From a virus (lineage: Duplodnaviria > Caudoviricetes), in IMG/VR virus record IMGVR_UViG_3300027205_000010, positions 1-28,571 of that record: 28,571 nucleotides of DNA; one strand, 5' to 3'. Below, piece by piece: positions 21,664 to 28,571 of the stretch (the first letter of the stretch is position 1; each line of letters opens with the position of its first letter). Below the pieces are notes generated by a model. It was not told the origin of the DNA. It saw only the letters and a list, made by a program, of their open reading frames with translations, and ran no database searches. A program made the position numbers and the translations under genes.

Positions 21664-22163
21664 TAAATATACCAACCCGTAAAATTGTTTTGTGTGCTTG
21701 GGAACATATCCGCATTTGAGTTCGTGCTATATTCGGGAAACAAAGAATTGTTAAAATTAATATAAGTTATAAAACGTTCCGTGTAATTTTGTGCAATCAT
21801 TCGTTCTTTTTCAACTAAGAAATCCACTTCGTTTTTATCTACGCTTGTTGCGTTTTCGCTCGTATGTTTAAACACCCCTTTATTCGCTATTGTATAAGCC
21901 GAAAAAGGCAAATATTCGACCATTGCCCAATGGATTAGCATTGGCTTAATATATGAATTAAGTAAAAATAAATAAGGGTTGGCAAGTGTGTTGTTTATTA
22001 TATCCGTTTTAATCTTTTCAAGTAAATTCGTACCCAAGTAATTTTGTATATGTATATCTTGAGCAACTTTAATCCATTGAATAAAAGAATCCGTGTCAAT
22101 GTTTCCGTTAAGTGCGGTAAATTTTACGATGTCGTTTCGTGAAATTAGTAATGCTTCTGCCAT
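21663..22163 (-). CDS. Putative head-tail adaptor (166 aa)
   Basis: Helical protein directly after the portal (AQDIHIQNYLGT.L...YIKPML...FPEY). Confidence 0.55.
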   Translation of the reverse strand: MAEALLISRNDIVKFTALNGNIDTDSFIQWIKVAQDIHIQNYLGTNLLEKIKTDIINNTLANPYLFLLNSYIKPMLIHWAMVEYLPFSAYTIANKGVFKHTSENATSVDKNEVDFLVEKERMIAQNYTERFITYINFNNSLFPEYSTNSNADMFPSTQNNFTGWYI

Positions 22164-23947
22164 TATTTAAATCTTTTGTTTGTTGGTAAAAATCCTTCGA
22201 ACGGCATATCTTTTGGACGCATTGCAACAAGATTTGGATTGCGAACACGATACCCCGCCTTTTCCGCTTTGCCAGTCGAAATTGTTATTGCGTTTGGACT
22301 TAATGGGTCTATTCCCGTTTTATCGTCAAAGGCTACAAATGTTTTTCTTTTCCAAACGTGGTGACATCCTCCACCGCCTTTATATAACCAAATGTCGTAA
22401 GTTGGCGCTCCTTTTGCCCCCCAACCTTCGTTTACAACTTCCGTTTTCATTCTTAAAATGTCTTCTTTTCGATAAACCTTATTTGCAAAAATCATTTTTT
22501 TACAAAATTCACGGCTATCCGAACTCAAAGCATTTGCGTATTCATAACGTGTAATAAATAAAATGCCGTCAATAACTTGGTCTTGTTCGCTTTTTGCTCG
22601 TGGGTTTGCCGTTCCCGTTCTAACAATTTTTTTTATTTTACTAAATATGCTTTTTTTTGGTGTGTTTAACTTTTCAATTTCTAAATCTATTTCGTCTTCG
22701 GTGTCGTAATCAACTTCGAATTCGTCTATTAATATCCAATTAGGGTCTACGTCTTCGCCTAAATCAATTAACGCTTGTGCTAAAGCGTCGTCTTTTGGGT
22801 CTGCGCTTAATTCCGTTCCCGTTTCTTCGGCTATTTGTTCTTCGGTTTGTGCGTTTTCTAAATCCGTAAATTCTAAAGGTTGCAAAGTCTTGAAAAATAG
22901 TTTTAAATGTATTCCGTTAAAATGTAAAATTGTATCGAAAGCGTCTAATAATTCTTCTTGAAAAGGTCGTATAACCATATTGTCAAATAAGATTGCACTA
23001 TTTTTTAACTCGTCTGCATTACTTGAAAATCCGTTTGTTGAAGCAACTCCAAATAATAACGGACTTGTAACGTTGTGTCCAAGCATTATTTTTCTTAAGC
23101 ATTCTTCGCTTAAATAAGTGTAATGTTCTGGAGCGTCGTTTAGTGGTATATCCTCAACCGTTGTTTTTGATTCCGCATTATCATTAAAAGCAACAATTAC
23201 TTTTTGACCGCGTGACCCCGTTAATTTATTTAAAACTTTTTGGCTAATAATAGATTGTTGTTCTTCGCTTGGAACTCCATTATTAAAGTTAACTACCTTC
23301 GTTCCGCTAAATCCGTTTTGAACTTCGTTTATTAAGTAGTCGCCTATTTCTTGCTCCAATAGTGCGTAAGGAACTGCGCCTTGATAGTCGGGGTAAGCGT
23401 AGTATTTCATTCCAACCGAATAAGGCTTACTATAAAGTATTTCTACATTGTCATTTGAGAATCCAAAAGCCGAAAATCTAAGCGGTGGAAATTGTCGTGT
23501 ATCGTTCCAATTGTCCGAATAATAGTAACCCGCTATTTCACCTTCTTTATTGCACTTTTCCGCTCGTAAAAGATTAACGGGTATATGATAAGCCTTTAAA
23601 ATCTTTTTTCTATCTTTTGAATAATGTAATTGAATCGCAAATTGCCCTAACATTTTGCGGTCAATAATCATTTTACGCACATCGTCCCTTGAAAACAAAG
23701 TCATCATTTGTGCGTACTCGTTTACTTTTTTAGAAGCGTCTAACGCACCTAAACCACGCCCGTAAACCAATCTACAAATGTTGTTTATTATGGCGTTATT
23801 CGTCGTGCTATTCGTGTATCTATCAATTAAGAAATCAAAGTATTGTTCGCCATTTTCCGTTAAGAAATCAACCCAATTTTCTCGGTTTGTTTCTTCGACA
23901 ATTGGTGTCGTGTAACTTGATAAATTTAAGACGTGGTAATTATTCAT
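22163..23947 (-). CDS. Portal protein with C-terminal extension
   Basis: About 370-aa portal-like core (S.TNNAII...YG.GL; YY.YPDY; NGFSG; IMLGH.VTSP.LFG; VIRPFQ), an acidic linker, then a SREFC...YKGGGGCHHVW domain. Confidence 0.8.
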   Translation of the reverse strand: MNNYHVLNLSSYTTPIVEETNRENWVDFLTENGEQYFDFLIDRYTNSTTNNAIINNICRLVYGRGLGALDASKKVNEYAQMMTLFSRDDVRKMIIDRKMLGQFAIQLHYSKDRKKILKAYHIPVNLLRAEKCNKEGEIAGYYYSDNWNDTRQFPPLRFSAFGFSNDNVEILYSKPYSVGMKYYAYPDYQGAVPYALLEQEIGDYLINEVQNGFSGTKVVNFNNGVPSEEQQSIISQKVLNKLTGSRGQKVIVAFNDNAESKTTVEDIPLNDAPEHYTYLSEECLRKIMLGHNVTSPLLFGVASTNGFSSNADELKNSAILFDNMVIRPFQEELLDAFDTILHFNGIHLKLFFKTLQPLEFTDLENAQTEEQIAEETGTELSADPKDDALAQALIDLGEDVDPNWILIDEFEVDYDTEDEIDLEIEKLNTPKKSIFSKIKKIVRTGTANPRAKSEQDQVIDGILFITRYEYANALSSDSREFCKKMIFANKVYRKEDILRMKTEVVNEGWGAKGAPTYDIWLYKGGGGCHHVWKRKTFVAFDDKTGIDPLSPNAITISTGKAEKAGYRVRNPNLVAMRPKDMPFEGFLPTNKRFK

Positions 23948-24978: not shown

Positions 24979-25923
24979 TTATCCGTAAACTACGATGTCT
25001 TCAATTACTCCGTAAGTTGCTCCAGCAGCCATTCTCATAATTACACGAACGTTTTGGCTTCCGTCGATGTCCGACATATCAATAACACGTACTTCTTGAG
25101 TGTCGCTCAAAAGTGAACAACCGAAATACAAGTTAGATGTTGTTGTTGCCATCATTGAATCGTTAGGCAATCCGTTTGCCATAAAAATTGGTATTCCAGA
25201 ATAAGACAAAGCTCCGTTTGTGTACCACATTGTACCCATTGAGTTAACACCCGCATTTGCTTGTGAGTTAGTACCTAAAGCACCGAAACCACCTAAAGCG
25301 GAAACATAAGCCTTTGCAACGTTTTGTGAAACATAAATCTTTAAATCAGATTTTCCGTAAAGTGTTGCGGGAATTTGCGCTTCAACTAAAGCAAGTTGAG
25401 CAATTACGTTAGCGGGTGTAATCGCAACGTTTGAAATTAATTGTGCGGGTGGTAAATTTGGGTCAACTAAAGCCGTTGAAAACAATCCGTCAAATTCTCC
25501 CGTGTTTGCACTTGAACCTTGCCATAAAGAAACTTCGTTAGCGGAAGCAACTTGGGAAGCTACGTGTGCAATTAAGTAATCGGCAAAAGACTTAGGTAAT
25601 ACGTCAAAAGACGAAAATCCTTGCTCTATTCCTTGCCAAGTGTTGTGAAATTGTGACTTACAAAGTTGCATATTTACTTGTAAATCTTTAACCTCTAAAA
25701 TTCTCTCGGTTAAATCAACGGTTGAGTTTGTTTGAAAGTCACAAGAAGCGTCCTCAAGAACGTTTGCAGTTTCAAGACGTTGAATAACTGATTTAAATTT
25801 GATGTTTGGCATAACGGTAACCCCGCCATTTTCGATTGTTGGAGCGCTTAGTAGTGCTGCCGAAATGTACTTACCCGCGAATTGACCCGCGTAAGTAGTG
25901 GTAATAACTGGTTGTGTTGGCAT
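24979..25923 (-). CDS. Major capsid protein (314 aa)
   Basis: Follows the scaffold; E..LWQG...FDG motif; size and pattern compatible with the HK97 fold; no delta domain. Confidence 0.85.
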   Translation of the reverse strand: MPTQPVITTTYAGQFAGKYISAALLSAPTIENGGVTVMPNIKFKSVIQRLETANVLEDASCDFQTNSTVDLTERILEVKDLQVNMQLCKSQFHNTWQGIEQGFSSFDVLPKSFADYLIAHVASQVASANEVSLWQGSSANTGEFDGLFSTALVDPNLPPAQLISNVAITPANVIAQLALVEAQIPATLYGKSDLKIYVSQNVAKAYVSALGGFGALGTNSQANAGVNSMGTMWYTNGALSYSGIPIFMANGLPNDSMMATTTSNLYFGCSLLSDTQEVRVIDMSDIDGSQNVRVIMRMAAGATYGVIEDIVVYG

Positions 25924-25950: not shown

Positions 25951-26532
25951 TTATTTAATTTTGTCTAATATAGAATCCATTACGTTACGCGGTCTTTTAG
26001 AACCAATTTTAGTGAATTCAATTTCTTTTGTATTCTCGGGGTTGAAACTAATTGGTTTAATGTCCGAAAGTTCGGTTGATTCTAATTCAACTTCGTCAAC
26101 TTTGGTTAATAATTCCAACTTAGCTTTTAACTCGTTATTTTCTTTTGTAAGCGCTTCCATTTCTGAAAAGAAAGTTTCTTTAACTACGCTTTCAATTGTT
26201 TTCTTAGGTGTTGACTTTTCAACTTGTGCTTCAACTTCTTCTTCAACAACTTCTTCTTCAGCAACTGGCGCTTCTTCTTCTTCGGCTTCAGCTTCTTTGT
26301 AGTCCGATATAATACCTTCTTCAACAACAACTAAAATAAAGCCGTCTTCCATTTCGTATTCACCAATTGGAACGGGTATTTTTTGCTCGTCTTCAGTTAT
26401 AACAAAAACTTCGTTTTCAGCTTCGAATGCGTCCGCTTCTATTAGTGTAACGCCGTCCGCCATTTTTCTTTGTTCTAACTTTACGTCCATTCCAAGTAAA
26501 GTTTTGATTTGATTAATTACGCTTGTTTTCAT
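25951..26532 (-). CDS. Capsid scaffolding protein
   Basis: Very acidic with a coiled coil and a C-terminal amphipathic helix NVMDSILDKIK; directly upstream of the capsid gene. Confidence 0.75.
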   Translation of the reverse strand: MKTSVINQIKTLLGMDVKLEQRKMADGVTLIEADAFEAENEVFVITEDEQKIPVPIGEYEMEDGFILVVVEEGIISDYKEAEAEEEEAPVAEEEVVEEEVEAQVEKSTPKKTIESVVKETFFSEMEALTKENNELKAKLELLTKVDEVELESTELSDIKPISFNPENTKEIEFTKIGSKRPRNVMDSILDKIK

Positions 26533-26550
26533 ATTTGATTTTTGTTTATA

Positions 26551-26913
26551 TTAAATTGATTTGATTTTATTAATTAAAGATTTAATTATTTTGGGGTCTC
26601 CAGAACCAGCTAAACTCAACGCCTCTTTTCCTTCTTTTGTTGAATTAAAATCCAAACCTATTTCTTTAGACGTTTTACTTAATTGACCATATAAAGTTTC
26701 AAGTTTCCCCTCGCTTCCCGCATATTTTTCACCAAAAAATATAACAAGTTTTTTAAAATCATTAAATTTAGTATAGGCATCGTTAAATTCTTTATAATCT
26801 GACGTCGCCGTGCTTAATAATTTTCGAAAATCATCAATCAAAGTTAATTCTACTTCGTGTTTTGCTAACTCAGTCTTGCCTATTTTGTCGTAAATTGTTT
26901 TTAGTGTATTCAT
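26551..26913 (-). CDS. Leader-KELGLD family protein, copy 3 (120 aa)
   Basis: MNTLKTIYDKIGKTELAKHEVEL leader; SKEIGLD motif. Confidence 0.85.
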   Translation of the reverse strand: MNTLKTIYDKIGKTELAKHEVELTLIDDFRKLLSTATSDYKEFNDAYTKFNDFKKLVIFFGEKYAGSEGKLETLYGQLSKTSKEIGLDFNSTKEGKEALSLAGSGDPKIIKSLINKIKSI

Positions 26914-27275
26914 ATGTTAGGCTGTTTTAAATAATCAGTATAGGTTTTATAAATACTATTAGATGTGCTAATTTCGCTTTCCGCTTGTTTTATTACGGGG
27001 TCATTAGTTGCGTCTAATCCTAATTCTTTTGCTTGTGTTTTAATTATAGAAACTAATTTTTCCGCCTCATCTAAATTTAATTTAACTTTTGGAAATTGTT
27101 CTTTTGCATAATCAACAACTTGTTTTTTTAAAGCAAAAAATTTATTTGAGCCGTCTCTTAACGCTACTAATTTTTTATTAATTGTGTTTAAGTCGTCTAA
27201 TTTTGTCAACTCAACTTTATGGTTTGCTAAATCCGTTTTGCCTAATTTGTCGTAAATGGTTTTTAGTGTGTTCAT
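26910..27275 (-). CDS. Leader-KELGLD family protein, copy 2 (121 aa)
   Basis: MNTLKTIYDKLGKTDLANHKVEL leader; AKELGLD motif. Confidence 0.85.
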   Translation of the reverse strand: MNTLKTIYDKLGKTDLANHKVELTKLDDLNTINKKLVALRDGSNKFFALKKQVVDYAKEQFPKVKLNLDEAEKLVSIIKTQAKELGLDATNDPVIKQAESEISTSNSIYKTYTDYLKQPNI

Positions 27276-27286
27276 CTATTTTTTAA

Positions 27287-27637
27287 TTAAAGATTTCCAA
27301 TAGCATCTTGTAATGACTTCAATGTGTCTTTTATAGTTTTATTAAATTCATTAATTAACATTTTAGGTTTATCCAATTCTTTCATTAAAGAATCCGCACC
27401 TAATTCTTTTGCGGTTGTTTCAATTTTTTGAACTGCTTTTAATGCCGTATCAACTATTTTACTATTTTTAATTAGTAAATCTTCTATTTTTAGAAAAGTA
27501 GGTCTTATGCTTGTTAAACTATCAGCAACAACATTAAGGTCTTTGGTAATATCTTGAACTAATCCTAAATTAACTTCGTGTTTTGCTAACTCGGTTTTAG
27601 CGCCTATCTTATCGTAAATTGTTTTTAGTGTGTTCAT
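27287..27637 (-). CDS. Leader-KELGLD family protein, copy 1 (116 aa)
   Basis: MNTLKTIYDKIGAKTELAKHEVNL leader; AKELGAD motif. Confidence 0.85.
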   Translation of the reverse strand: MNTLKTIYDKIGAKTELAKHEVNLGLVQDITKDLNVVADSLTSIRPTFLKIEDLLIKNSKIVDTALKAVQKIETTAKELGADSLMKELDKPKMLINEFNKTIKDTLKSLQDAIGNL

Positions 27638-27674: not shown

Positions 27675-27848
27675 TTAGTTTACGTTTCCAATTCCTTGAG
27701 CTTGTAAAGACCCGTCGCAACACTTCCGAGAATAGCGCTTTCCGTCCTTACATAAACAACCCCTTCGACCTCCAATTGGGCTTGAACGGGGTCTTTCAAT
27801 TTCTTTTTTTGCTACGTCTGAAACCTTTATGTTTGTTGGATTTTTCAT
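27675..27848 (-). CDS. Cys-rich microprotein (57 aa, ...SSPIGGRRGCLCKDGKRYSRKCCDGSLQAQGIGNVN)
   Basis: Manual translation; CxC...CC motif; GC-richer, coding-like composition. Confidence 0.7.
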   Translation of the reverse strand: MKNPTNIKVSDVAKKEIERPRSSPIGGRRGCLCKDGKRYSRKCCDGSLQAQGIGNVN

Positions 27849-27938: not shown

Positions 27939-28076
27939 TTATCTTCCTTGCCTTGCGTACAATTTCTTGTAATTTTTACTTGATTTTAACCCGCTATTTC
28001 TTGTTTTTGAGTGTACTCCAGAACGCTTAATTTTTGGTTTTCTCAAGTGGTTTTGTACGCTCGTTTGCTTTGCCAT
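27939..28076 (-). CDS. Highly basic microprotein (45 aa, MAKQTSVQNHLRKPKIKRSGVHSK...KNYKKLYARQGR)
   Basis: Manual translation; ATG immediately follows the protease stop; no acidic residues. Confidence 0.7.
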   Translation of the reverse strand: MAKQTSVQNHLRKPKIKRSGVHSKTRNSGLKSSKNYKKLYARQGR

Positions 28077-28571
28077 TTAGAATCCAAATTTTTGAATATT
28101 GATTAGTATTTTGTCAATTACATCTTTTCTACCTTCAATAGCTTGCATTACTGATTGAGCTTGTTTGTAAAAATCAGTTCCTTTAAAATCTAATCCTAAT
28201 TCTTTAGCTTGTTTTTCTGATTGAAATAATGGCTCGTTAATATTACTTAATAAAACATTATATTTTACTTCTATTTCTCTTGCTTTTATAATAACTGCAT
28301 TTAAACTAGATTTAAAATCACTATATAAATTAGCTTCTTGCTTTTTACCTTCTGCTATTCCTTTTTTTAAATCGTCAATTAAACTTAAATCTACTTTATT
28401 GCTTTTTAATTCGCTTTTTTCTATTAACGACTTAATTTTTTCAATCATTGCTTTTTCTTTCATATCTATATTTTTTGAATTCATTTCGTATCTGTCCGCA
28501 AAATAACCTTCAATAGAAAATCCTTTTACTTCGCCTAATTTAACTTTGTTCCAAATTTCGTCGTTGTTTAC
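28077..28571 (-). CDS. Prohead protease, C-terminal part with fused KELGLD domain
   Basis: Open to the contig end and in frame with 1..575. KSELKSNKVDLSLIDD...QAKELGLD matches the three paralogues. Confidence 0.85.
   Translation of the reverse strand, partial: VNNDEIWNKVKLGEVKGFSIEGYFADRYEMNSKNIDMKEKAMIEKIKSLIEKSELKSNKVDLSLIDDLKKGIAEGKKQEANLYSDFKSSLNAVIIKAREIEVKYNVLLSNINEPLFQSEKQAKELGLDFKGTDFYKQAQSVMQAIEGRKDVIDKILINIQKFGF
28446..28571. repeat. Terminal direct repeat, right copy (126 bp)
   Basis: Identical to 24-149. Confidence 0.95.

What the first reader, a model, noticed from the sequence alone, without database searches (positions are those of the whole stretch)
25951..25986. The cargo leader mimics the scaffold C-terminal helix
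Seen: the scaffold ends N-V-M-D-S-I-L-D-K-I-K and the cargo leaders begin N-T-L-K-T-I-Y-D-K-I-G. N, I, D, K and I are identical and the hydrophobic register is the same. Similar amphipathic helices occur at the scaffold N-terminus (VINQIKTLLG), before the protease-fused domain (MIEKIKSLI) and in the portal extension (SIFSKIKKIV). Known: in P22 and herpesviruses the scaffold C-terminal helix binds the inner surface of the coat protein. Inference: cargo proteins enter the prohead by using the scaffold docking site on the capsid protein, which gives a concrete mechanism for targeting.
Basis: partly seen in the sequence, partly recalled or inferred. Interest (0 to 1): 0.85.

Follow-up and report, generated by a model that had tools for sequence, protein, structure and literature searches.

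The report
Phage cargo tag copies scaffold tail
In a large family of uncultured aquatic phages, interchangeable small proteins begin with a short helix that changes in step with the tail of each phage's own head-scaffold protein, which likely lets them dock where the scaffold docks inside the forming capsid before the head protease likely clips them free.

Summary
The match is real: 5 of 11 residues for two leaders, 4 for the third. Alone it is modest (BLOSUM62 22-24).

The window is the head module of a Bacteroidota-type phage: XkdF-type protease, three optional genes of about 120 aa, scaffold, HK97-fold capsid protein, portal. Across 335 scaffold-leader pairs from 254 related scaffolds, leaders resemble their own phage's scaffold tail more than other clades' tails (7 of 7, 17 of 21, 34 of 43 clades). 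The tail ranks first of 165 scaffold windows. Tree-independent pairs agree more weakly (about 30 of 46). Codons show no recent copying. Each leader ends in a [VI]-x-L motif, which in relatives also ends capsid-protein propeptides at the mature start, so it is the likely protease site.

Docking on the capsid protein itself is not shown: leaders do not track the capsid protein beyond the scaffold. The N-terminal and protease helices are a second class.

Verdict: likely a T4-style capsid-targeting tag working by CpmB-style scaffold mimicry. This scan noted scaffold-tail tags earlier, mostly in T4-like phages. New here are the phage group, the cut code and the covariation test.

The parts
25951..25986 (-). 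Scaffold C-terminal amphipathic helix plus stop codon; predicted capsid-binding helix and the model for the leaders
   Evidence: Sequence; conserved M-D-x-[IV]-[LMI]-x-K pattern in 26 homologues; covariation with leaders. Capsid binding is inferred.
25951..26532 (-). Head scaffold protein, 193 aa
   Evidence: Lies directly upstream of the capsid gene; matches residues 204-274 of the protease-scaffold fusion of Inhavirus P12024S (hhalign probability 97%; phrog_24921); 6,511 relatives at E<=0.001.
26491..26520 (-). Scaffold N-terminal helix (second helix class), followed by a V-K-L motif
   Evidence: Profile comparison; alignment. Role unknown; a core-assembly helix is my guess.
26551..26913 (-). 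Cargo 1, 120 aa: leader helix 26878-26910, leader to the predicted cut after Leu23 (26845-26913), then a helical body
   Evidence: no PHROGs family and no Pfam match at the curated cut-off.
26910..27275 (-). Cargo 2, 121 aa: leader helix 27240-27272, leader to the predicted cut after Leu23 (27207-27275)
   Evidence: a closely similar body sits alone at this position in relatives L003, L015 and L021.
27287..27637 (-). Cargo 3, 116 aa: leader helix 27602-27634, leader to the predicted cut after Leu24 (27566-27637), then a long helical hairpin
   Evidence: AlphaFold2 model, mean pLDDT 89.8: helix 3-13, loose linker 14-23, helices 24-79 and 83-114.
28077..28571 (-). Prohead protease (5' part beyond the window end), its tail helix 28422-28448, a V-D-L motif ending at 28386, and a fused cargo-type body 28077-28385
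   Evidence: Full-length copy in L002 matches PF14550 XkdF/S78_2 at E 1.9e-18, above the cut-off; the fused body is at least 70% identical to a stand-alone cargo in L272.
24979..25923 (-). Major capsid protein, 314 aa, HK97 fold; predicted docking partner
   Evidence: AlphaFold2 model of modest confidence (pLDDT 62); Foldseek best hit P2/P4 procapsid E 7.5e-10, then T5-like capsids and encapsulins.
22622..22651 (-). Amphipathic helix in the C-terminal extension of the portal protein (gene 22163-23947)
   Evidence: Portal: phrog_33693, E 8.7e-101. The helix is present in most of 26 distinct homologous segments and missing or different in L269 and L329. Role untested.

Best explanation
The leader is likely a capsid-targeting tag: its first helix changes in step with the C-terminal helix of the same phage's scaffold, likely because both bind one site, predicted to be the scaffold groove on the inner face of the capsid protein, and the head protease likely cuts the tag off after a [VI]-x-L motif. 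In order: (1) shown: optional, exchangeable ~100-aa bodies sit behind a conserved leader between the protease and scaffold genes, and some are fused to the protease tail; (2) shown: the leader helix matches its own phage's scaffold tail better than other clades' tails; (3) inferred: a shared binding partner keeps the two alike; (4) inferred by analogy with 80alpha scaffold and CpmB: the partner is the capsid protein's N-arm/P-domain groove, and the cargo takes a share of the sites during prohead assembly, perhaps more weakly because it lacks the conserved acidic residue; (5) inferred: the protease frees the body, as it likely also cuts scaffold, portal extension, its own tail and, in relatives, a capsid propeptide; (6) speculative: the freed helical hairpins stay in the head and are ejected into the host, where their fast turnover fits a host-conflict role.
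For: Covariation with the cognate tail, fixed register, 335 pairs from 254 scaffolds: cognate beats non-cognate in 7 of 7, 17 of 21 and 34 of 43 clades at 50, 60 and 70% scaffold identity (z 3.6, 5.8, 6.9). In the 109 pairs fetched after the method was fixed: 3 of 3 (p 0.17), 11 of 14 and 20 of 26 clades. Coiled-coil and cargo-body controls are flat. The tail ranks first of 165 scaffold windows (z 4.5 and 6.1; next 3.2 and 4.2). The signal sits at positions 6, 7 and 9. Independent tree pairs: about 30 of 46 positive, median p 0.0075, range 0.002-0.066 over 20 draws. Example L477: tail TIQDKVFEKMFN, leader SIESKVFEKLFT. 203 of 258 leaders fit the tail profile better than the N-terminal profile. 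Codon identity at identical residues is 0.54 cognate against 0.50 non-cognate and does not rise with score, so the likeness is kept at protein level. Cut site: 19 of 121 capsid proteins have an N-terminal extension, and 14 of these end in [VIT]-x-L exactly nine residues before the anchor, where Met removal places the start in the commonest form (52 of 121, read by eye). The motif lies in the predicted loose linker. Precedent: the 80alpha scaffold's last 16 residues form an amphipathic helix on the capsid N-arm, and CpmB uses the same site (PMC5644958, passages).
Against: Leaders do not track the capsid protein beyond the scaffold (partial rank correlation -0.01), and in 40 pairs with similar scaffolds but different capsid proteins the leaders are no less alike. 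Position 4 is Asp or Glu in 236 of 254 scaffolds, but Lys in 139 of 258 leaders and Asp or Glu in 36. Permutation p-values are too optimistic: null windows have sd 1.2-1.3 and reach z 4.2. In the first data set the coiled-coil control reached median p 0.034 in one of two independent-pair settings. The N-terminal helix shows a weak signal too (p about 0.03 in the full set, absent in the new pairs). 55 of 258 leaders fit the tail profile no better than the N-terminal one. No virion proteome or structure of any member was found.
Confidence: 0.6

Rival explanations
1. The leader loads cargo by joining the scaffold core: it pairs helix to helix with the scaffold tail, or binds another tail partner such as the portal, and does not use the capsid groove.
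For: Predicts the same covariation with the tail. Leaders track the scaffold side and not the capsid protein. T4 internal proteins co-purify with the scaffold gp22 and their tags target the core (PMC9026906, passages).
Against: Likeness at the same buried positions (6, 7, 9) is what two ligands of one groove would show. In the solved case read here the scaffold's terminal helix binds the capsid protein (PMC5644958).
Confidence: 0.2
2. These proteins dock at the scaffold site but act as auxiliary scaffolds or head-shape modulators, like CpmB, and are degraded or expelled; they are not delivered cargo.
For: The body is a long helical hairpin, as scaffolds are helical. 130 of 230 distinct proteins keep an A-K-E-L-G-like turn, and 134 of 245 bodies fall into one family at 30% identity, so many share one architecture.
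Against: They are optional (53 of 71 loci from the protease-pattern scan have none) and split into 184 families at 50% identity among 245 bodies, unlike a conserved assembly part. They move between stand-alone and protease-fused forms.
Confidence: 0.1
3. The likeness is not mimicry: it reflects generic Lys-rich amphipathic helices, shared descent of clades, or old copying of the scaffold 3' end with no present docking role.
For: The single-window score is modest. Non-cognate leader-tail scores (about 11) equal leader scores against a coiled-coil segment. The independent-pair signal is moderate. I seeded the fixed register with a pattern chosen after seeing the tail, which inflates absolute scores.
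Against: The cognate excess cannot come from generic composition, ranks first of 165 windows that share the same tree, recurs in new pairs, persists without the most divergent group (21 of 27 clades), and shows no codon trace of copying.
Confidence: 0.1

Closest known systems
Phage T4 capsid-targeting sequence (CTS) of internal proteins IPI-III, removed by protease gp21
   Same: A short shared N-terminal propeptide on small, variable, dispensable proteins, ending in a prohead-protease site (PMC9026906, PMC9958956, passages).
   Different: Different phage group and protease family (PF14550). The motif is [VI]-x-L, not L/I-x-E. The leader is 23-24 aa in the window with a separate helix that resembles the scaffold tail. 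[quoted passage not shown]
SaPI1 CpmB, which binds the 80alpha capsid protein at the scaffold's C-terminal site
   Same: A second protein carries a copy of the scaffold's terminal capsid-binding segment; cryo-EM shows both in one site (PMC5644958, PMC6893505, passages). This is the proven precedent for the mechanism proposed here.
   Different: CpmB is encoded by a satellite, carries the copy at its C-terminus and changes head size. Here the phage's own genes carry it at the N-terminus, ahead of a predicted cut site and a variable body.
Phage P1 DarB N-terminal packaging signal
   Same: An N-terminal signal (within 30 residues) sufficient to load a protein into the head (PMC9024508, passages).
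   Different: No consensus among Dar proteins and no scaffold identified in P1, by that paper.
Encapsulin cargo-loading peptides
   Same: A short peptide loads cargo into an HK97-fold shell (PMC13185644, passage); encapsulins are among the top fold matches of this capsid protein.
   Different: This shell is a phage head with portal, terminase and protease genes, and the tag is predicted to be cut off.
Inhavirus P12024S/P12024L (Nonlabens phages), the closest cultured relatives found
   Same: Homologous capsid protein (29% identity) and protease-scaffold module, with portal nearby.
   Different: Protease and scaffold are one 349-aa protein directly before the capsid gene, with no cargo genes between them.

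Membership tests
T4-type capsid-targeting sequence | Shared short N-terminal leader on variable, dispensable proteins | tested here: met
   338 distinct proteins in fetched loci; 1,051 clusters at 50% identity match the leader profile, and all 150 listed match at the N-terminus; optional.
T4-type capsid-targeting sequence | Leader ends in the gp21 motif L/I-x-E and is cut after Glu | tested here: not met
   Capsid propeptides in relatives place the likely cut after Leu in [VIT]-x-L; the protease is PF14550.
T4-type capsid-targeting sequence | Sequence homology to T4 internal proteins or their tags | tested here: inconclusive
   No PHROGs or Pfam family for the three cargo proteins at a meaningful score; no direct comparison with T4 sequences was run.
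T4-type capsid-targeting sequence | Leader is sufficient to load a foreign protein, and is removed in the head | not testable with these tools
   Needs a fusion experiment and virion mass spectrometry.
CpmB-type scaffold mimic | Carries a segment resembling the scaffold's terminal capsid-binding helix | tested here: met
   Covariation and profile tests.
CpmB-type scaffold mimic | Satellite-encoded, with the mimic at the C-terminus | tested here: not met
   The genes lie inside the phage's own head module and the helix is N-terminal.
CpmB-type scaffold mimic | Occupies the same site on the capsid protein as the scaffold | not testable with these tools
   Needs a prohead structure or a binding assay.
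Encapsulin cargo-loading system | Non-viral HK97-fold shell without portal or terminase | tested here: not met
   Portal, terminase and tape-measure genes are in the window.
HK97-fold major capsid protein (24979-25923) | HK97 fold | tested here: met
   283 PDB matches at E<=0.001; the listed top matches are capsids and encapsulins; model pLDDT 62.
XkdF/S78_2 prohead protease | Pfam PF14550 above the curated cut-off | tested here: met
   67.1 bits against a cut-off of 24 for the full-length copy in L002; the window holds only its 3' part.

The most novel reading that the evidence does not exclude
A widespread family of small Bacteroidota phages runs a plug-in cargo bay. More than a thousand different helical-hairpin proteins are loaded by a tag that copies, and keeps pace with, the scaffold's capsid-binding helix. 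One protease code ([VI]-x-L) frees them, and they are ejected into the host as a fast-turnover set of effectors. The covarying tail/leader pairs would be a natural, clade-specific docking code for HK97-fold heads.
Probability: 0.35. Interest if true: 0.8.

Novelty: new variant of a known kind. Interest (0 to 1): 0.6.

Why it matters
How phages pick proteins to carry inside the head is open even for T4, where a 2023 review calls the localisation mechanisms 'mysterious' (PMC9958956). This family names a candidate mechanism, reuse of the scaffold's own docking helix, and supplies hundreds of natural matched and mismatched tag/tail pairs that make it directly testable with four or five genes in a laboratory strain. 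If right, it also defines a large unannotated class of packaged phage proteins (1,051 clusters) and a short cleavable tag for loading chosen proteins into an HK97-fold shell.

Tried and rejected
Complex prediction of capsid protein (121-row alignment) with the 34-aa leader (99-row alignment): 'no answer', score 0.00 in both runs, controls not folded, partner fold uncertain. This is no evidence either way.

Mutual information between capsid columns and tail or leader columns: effective depth 74, nothing above the background of other scaffold columns, and the coupling profiles of tail and leader did not correlate (-0.11). Underpowered.

My early idea that the divergent clade's leaders copy the scaffold N-terminal helix: within that group the tail covaries (p 0.006-0.03) and the N-terminal helix does not (p 0.2-0.4). 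The two matches score about equally in absolute terms there, so a dual fit is not excluded.

Leader against the cognate protease-tail helix: no covariation; the helix finder misplaced some of these segments.

Recent DNA copying of the tail into leaders: not supported.

Function of the cargo body: Foldseek in BFVD gave no match at E<=0.001; VIA-align gave generic hairpins, best Z 10.1, rmsd 1.2, 72 aligned, below the level that counts for helical bundles; the ESM Atlas gave no usable hit; Pfam matched 3 of 113 leader-bearing proteins at E<=1e-4, one of them below its cut-off.

RNA runs: five lake-water metatranscriptomes with small word shares (0.07-0.15); contigs of four cover parts of the module, including cargo genes, at 90-100% likeness, but contigs do not show transcription. 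Not used as support.

Literature searches found no paper on these leaders; two searches returned nothing. The library lacks most subscription papers, one review on scaffold structures was not held, and no supplements were read, so absence from print is not established.

Full report
Observation. The finding's coordinates encode the last 11 residues and stop of a 193-aa minus-strand ORF (25951-26532): NVMDSILDKIK. Three upstream ORFs of 116-121 aa begin M-NTLKTIYDK[I/L]G. Two share five residues with the tail and one shares four. Among 8,463 11-mers from 46 ORFs that I chose as plausible genes, the leaders score 24, 24 and 22 against the tail. Only the self match and one other 11-mer score higher, and two tie at 22. 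The match is real, but too short to carry the claim alone.

Context. The window is a whole 28.6-kb record of a tailed phage, with terminase, portal and tape-measure genes. The module runs protease, two tiny ORFs, three cargo genes, scaffold, capsid protein, two more genes, portal. The capsid protein has the HK97 fold (model pLDDT 62; best Foldseek hit the P2/P4 procapsid, E 7.5e-10). The protease is PF14550. The scaffold matches the C-terminal half of the protease-scaffold fusion of the cultured Nonlabens phage P12024S. The host is likely in Bacteroidota: the only GenBank phage matches are four records of two Nonlabens phages, and 7 of 11 genome-collection loci carry Bacteroidota titles, while 3 carry other titles and 1 has none.

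Data set. Seven scans of IMG/VR gave 711 loci: one by scaffold, one by a protease motif, five by the motif at the end of the leader. None selected on the leader helix itself. Of 712 loci held, including P12024S which I left out, 428 had a complete scaffold and 323 of these had at least one cargo candidate, defined automatically as a complete 85-260-aa ORF between protease and scaffold with the motif in residues 9-45. After removing duplicates and one scaffold that failed the segment filter, 335 pairs from 254 scaffolds remained. One false cargo (L496) and one wrong start (L490), seen, were left in.

The cargo genes are an optional, exchangeable cassette. In the scan that did not select for cargo, 53 of 71 loci have none and 18 have one to three. 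In the first 444 loci, 245 bodies formed 184 families at 50% identity, though 134 joined one family at 30%. Of 195 complete proteases, 99 end shortly after the catalytic domain, 27 carry a cargo-type body, 56 carry another domain and 13 were unclassified. Four body families at 70% identity contain both fused and stand-alone forms, including this phage's fused body. A profile of the first 34 residues (96 of 120 listed leaders, kept by eye as tail-like, plus the window's three) matches 1,051 clusters at 50% identity; all 150 listed match at the N-terminus. The model of cargo 3 shows a free leader helix (3-13), a loose linker (14-23) and a long helical hairpin. Fold and family searches give no function.

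The leader follows the scaffold tail. In the first set (225 pairs) leaders scored higher against their own tail than against other clades' tails at five clade cut-offs (z 1.9-5.2; not significant with only 3 clades), while leader against coiled coil and body against tail were flat. With the register fixed from the leaders, the excess held in 8 of 8, 14 of 17 and 29 of 35 clades, was strongest at positions 6, 7 and 9, and persisted without the most divergent group. Against all 165 twelve-column windows of the scaffold, which share the same tree, the tail ranked first (z 4.5 and 6.1; next 3.2 and 4.2). The spread of those windows (sd 1.2-1.3) shows that the permutation p-values are too small. 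The 109 pairs fetched afterwards repeated the result (11 of 14 and 20 of 26 clades), although they come largely from the same clades; the full set gave 7 of 7, 17 of 21 and 34 of 43. Disjoint pairs on a maximum-likelihood tree gave about 30 positive and 16 negative of 46 (median p 0.0075). Controls were flat except the N-terminal helix in one setting (p 0.03), and in the first set the coiled-coil control reached p 0.034 once. Codon identity at identical residues is 0.54 for cognate and 0.50 for non-cognate pairs, against 0.63 between neighbouring leaders, so recent copying does not explain it. I seeded the register with a hydrophobic pattern after seeing the tail; this inflates absolute scores but not the cognate excess.

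The mimicry is imperfect and not universal. Position 4 is Asp or Glu in 236 of 254 tails, but Lys in 139 of 258 leaders. 203 of 258 leaders fit the tail profile better than the N-terminal profile. The scaffold N-terminal helix and the protease-tail helix form a second class. They likely descend from the linker helix of the fused form (my inference) and may bring protease and its fused cargo into the core by another route.

A likely cutting code. Every leader here ends in [VI]-x-L by definition of the set, so that is not evidence in itself. Independent support comes from capsid proteins: 19 of 121 have an N-terminal extension, and 14 of these end in [VIT]-x-L exactly nine residues before the conserved anchor, which is where Met removal leaves the start in the commonest form (52 of 121). 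Similar motifs occur in the window's scaffold (3), portal (4), protease tail and, once, inside the capsid protein, so the motif alone does not mark a cut. Cleavage is inferred.

What is not shown. Leaders do not track the capsid protein once the scaffold is accounted for (partial r -0.01), whereas they do track the tail (0.15); in 40 pairs with similar scaffolds and different capsid proteins the leaders are unchanged. Whole-protein distance is a coarse proxy for one groove, but this test gave no support. The partner is therefore assigned by analogy: in phage 80alpha the last 16 scaffold residues form an amphipathic helix and hook on the capsid N-arm, and the satellite protein CpmB binds the same site with a homologous segment (PMC5644958 and PMC6893505, passages read). 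The P22 case was seen only as a passage in PMC5644958 and as reference titles in PMC13185644; the herpesvirus case was not checked.

Comparison and novelty. It works like the T4 capsid-targeting sequence (PMC9026906, PMC9958956, passages) but fails T4's L/I-x-E code and is not a member on present evidence. It resembles CpmB in mechanism but not in position or origin. P1 DarB (PMC9024508, passages) and encapsulin peptides (PMC13185644, passage) are looser analogues; PMC5512222 (passages) added only background. Eight literature searches found no description of this family's leaders, within a library that lacks most subscription papers. This scan had noted scaffold-tail tags on other DNA, mostly T4-like phages (AI notes that I did not check, seen after my main covariation tests); look-ups by this window's place, sequence and family words found no note on this phage group. 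I rate it a new variant of a known kind, interest 0.6, with 0.6 confidence in docking at the scaffold's capsid site followed by cleavage.

Noticed in passing
window 27675-27848 (-): A 57-aa ORF with four cysteines recurs between protease and scaffold in most relatives listed; no Pfam or PHROGs family. Possibly a small metal-binding head protein.
   Followed up: partly
window 27939-28076 (-): A 45-aa, very basic ORF directly after the protease gene, with no Pfam match.
   Followed up: partly
protease genes of relatives, for example L031, L049, L057: 56 of 195 complete proteases carry a different optional C-terminal domain that starts at an L-E-[ST]-Y-x-D-Y motif after the tail helix; not identified.
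   Followed up: no
L014:50-403, L383, L714:697-1050: A second leader type, often on the gene directly after the protease, with a longer helix ending at the same motif; some copies fit the scaffold N-terminal profile. It may be a split-off protease tail.
   Followed up: partly
L027:4455-5997: Scaffold 85% identical to the window's but capsid protein only 51-53% identical, a likely capsid-gene swap; the leader is unchanged.
   Followed up: partly
capsid genes of relatives, for example L063, L086, L144: 19 of 121 capsid proteins carry an N-terminal extension, most ending in the leader's motif; the window's capsid protein has none.
   Followed up: yes
window 26538-27637: RNA-library contigs of related phages join across the cassette, for example 26878 to 27240 in two runs. 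This fits cargo gain, loss or swap through the shared leader, but assembly through the repeat is not excluded.
   Followed up: partly
P0175, P0193, P0270, P0159: Leader-bearing proteins that continue into unrelated sequence (UvdE endonuclease in P0270, Hsp20 in P0159). Probably chimeric contigs; genomic context not checked.
   Followed up: partly
L721-L723: Related head modules lie in long bacterial contigs (Chitinophaga, Flavobacterium, one unnamed). Two have protease and scaffold fused, and none shows cargo genes.
   Followed up: partly
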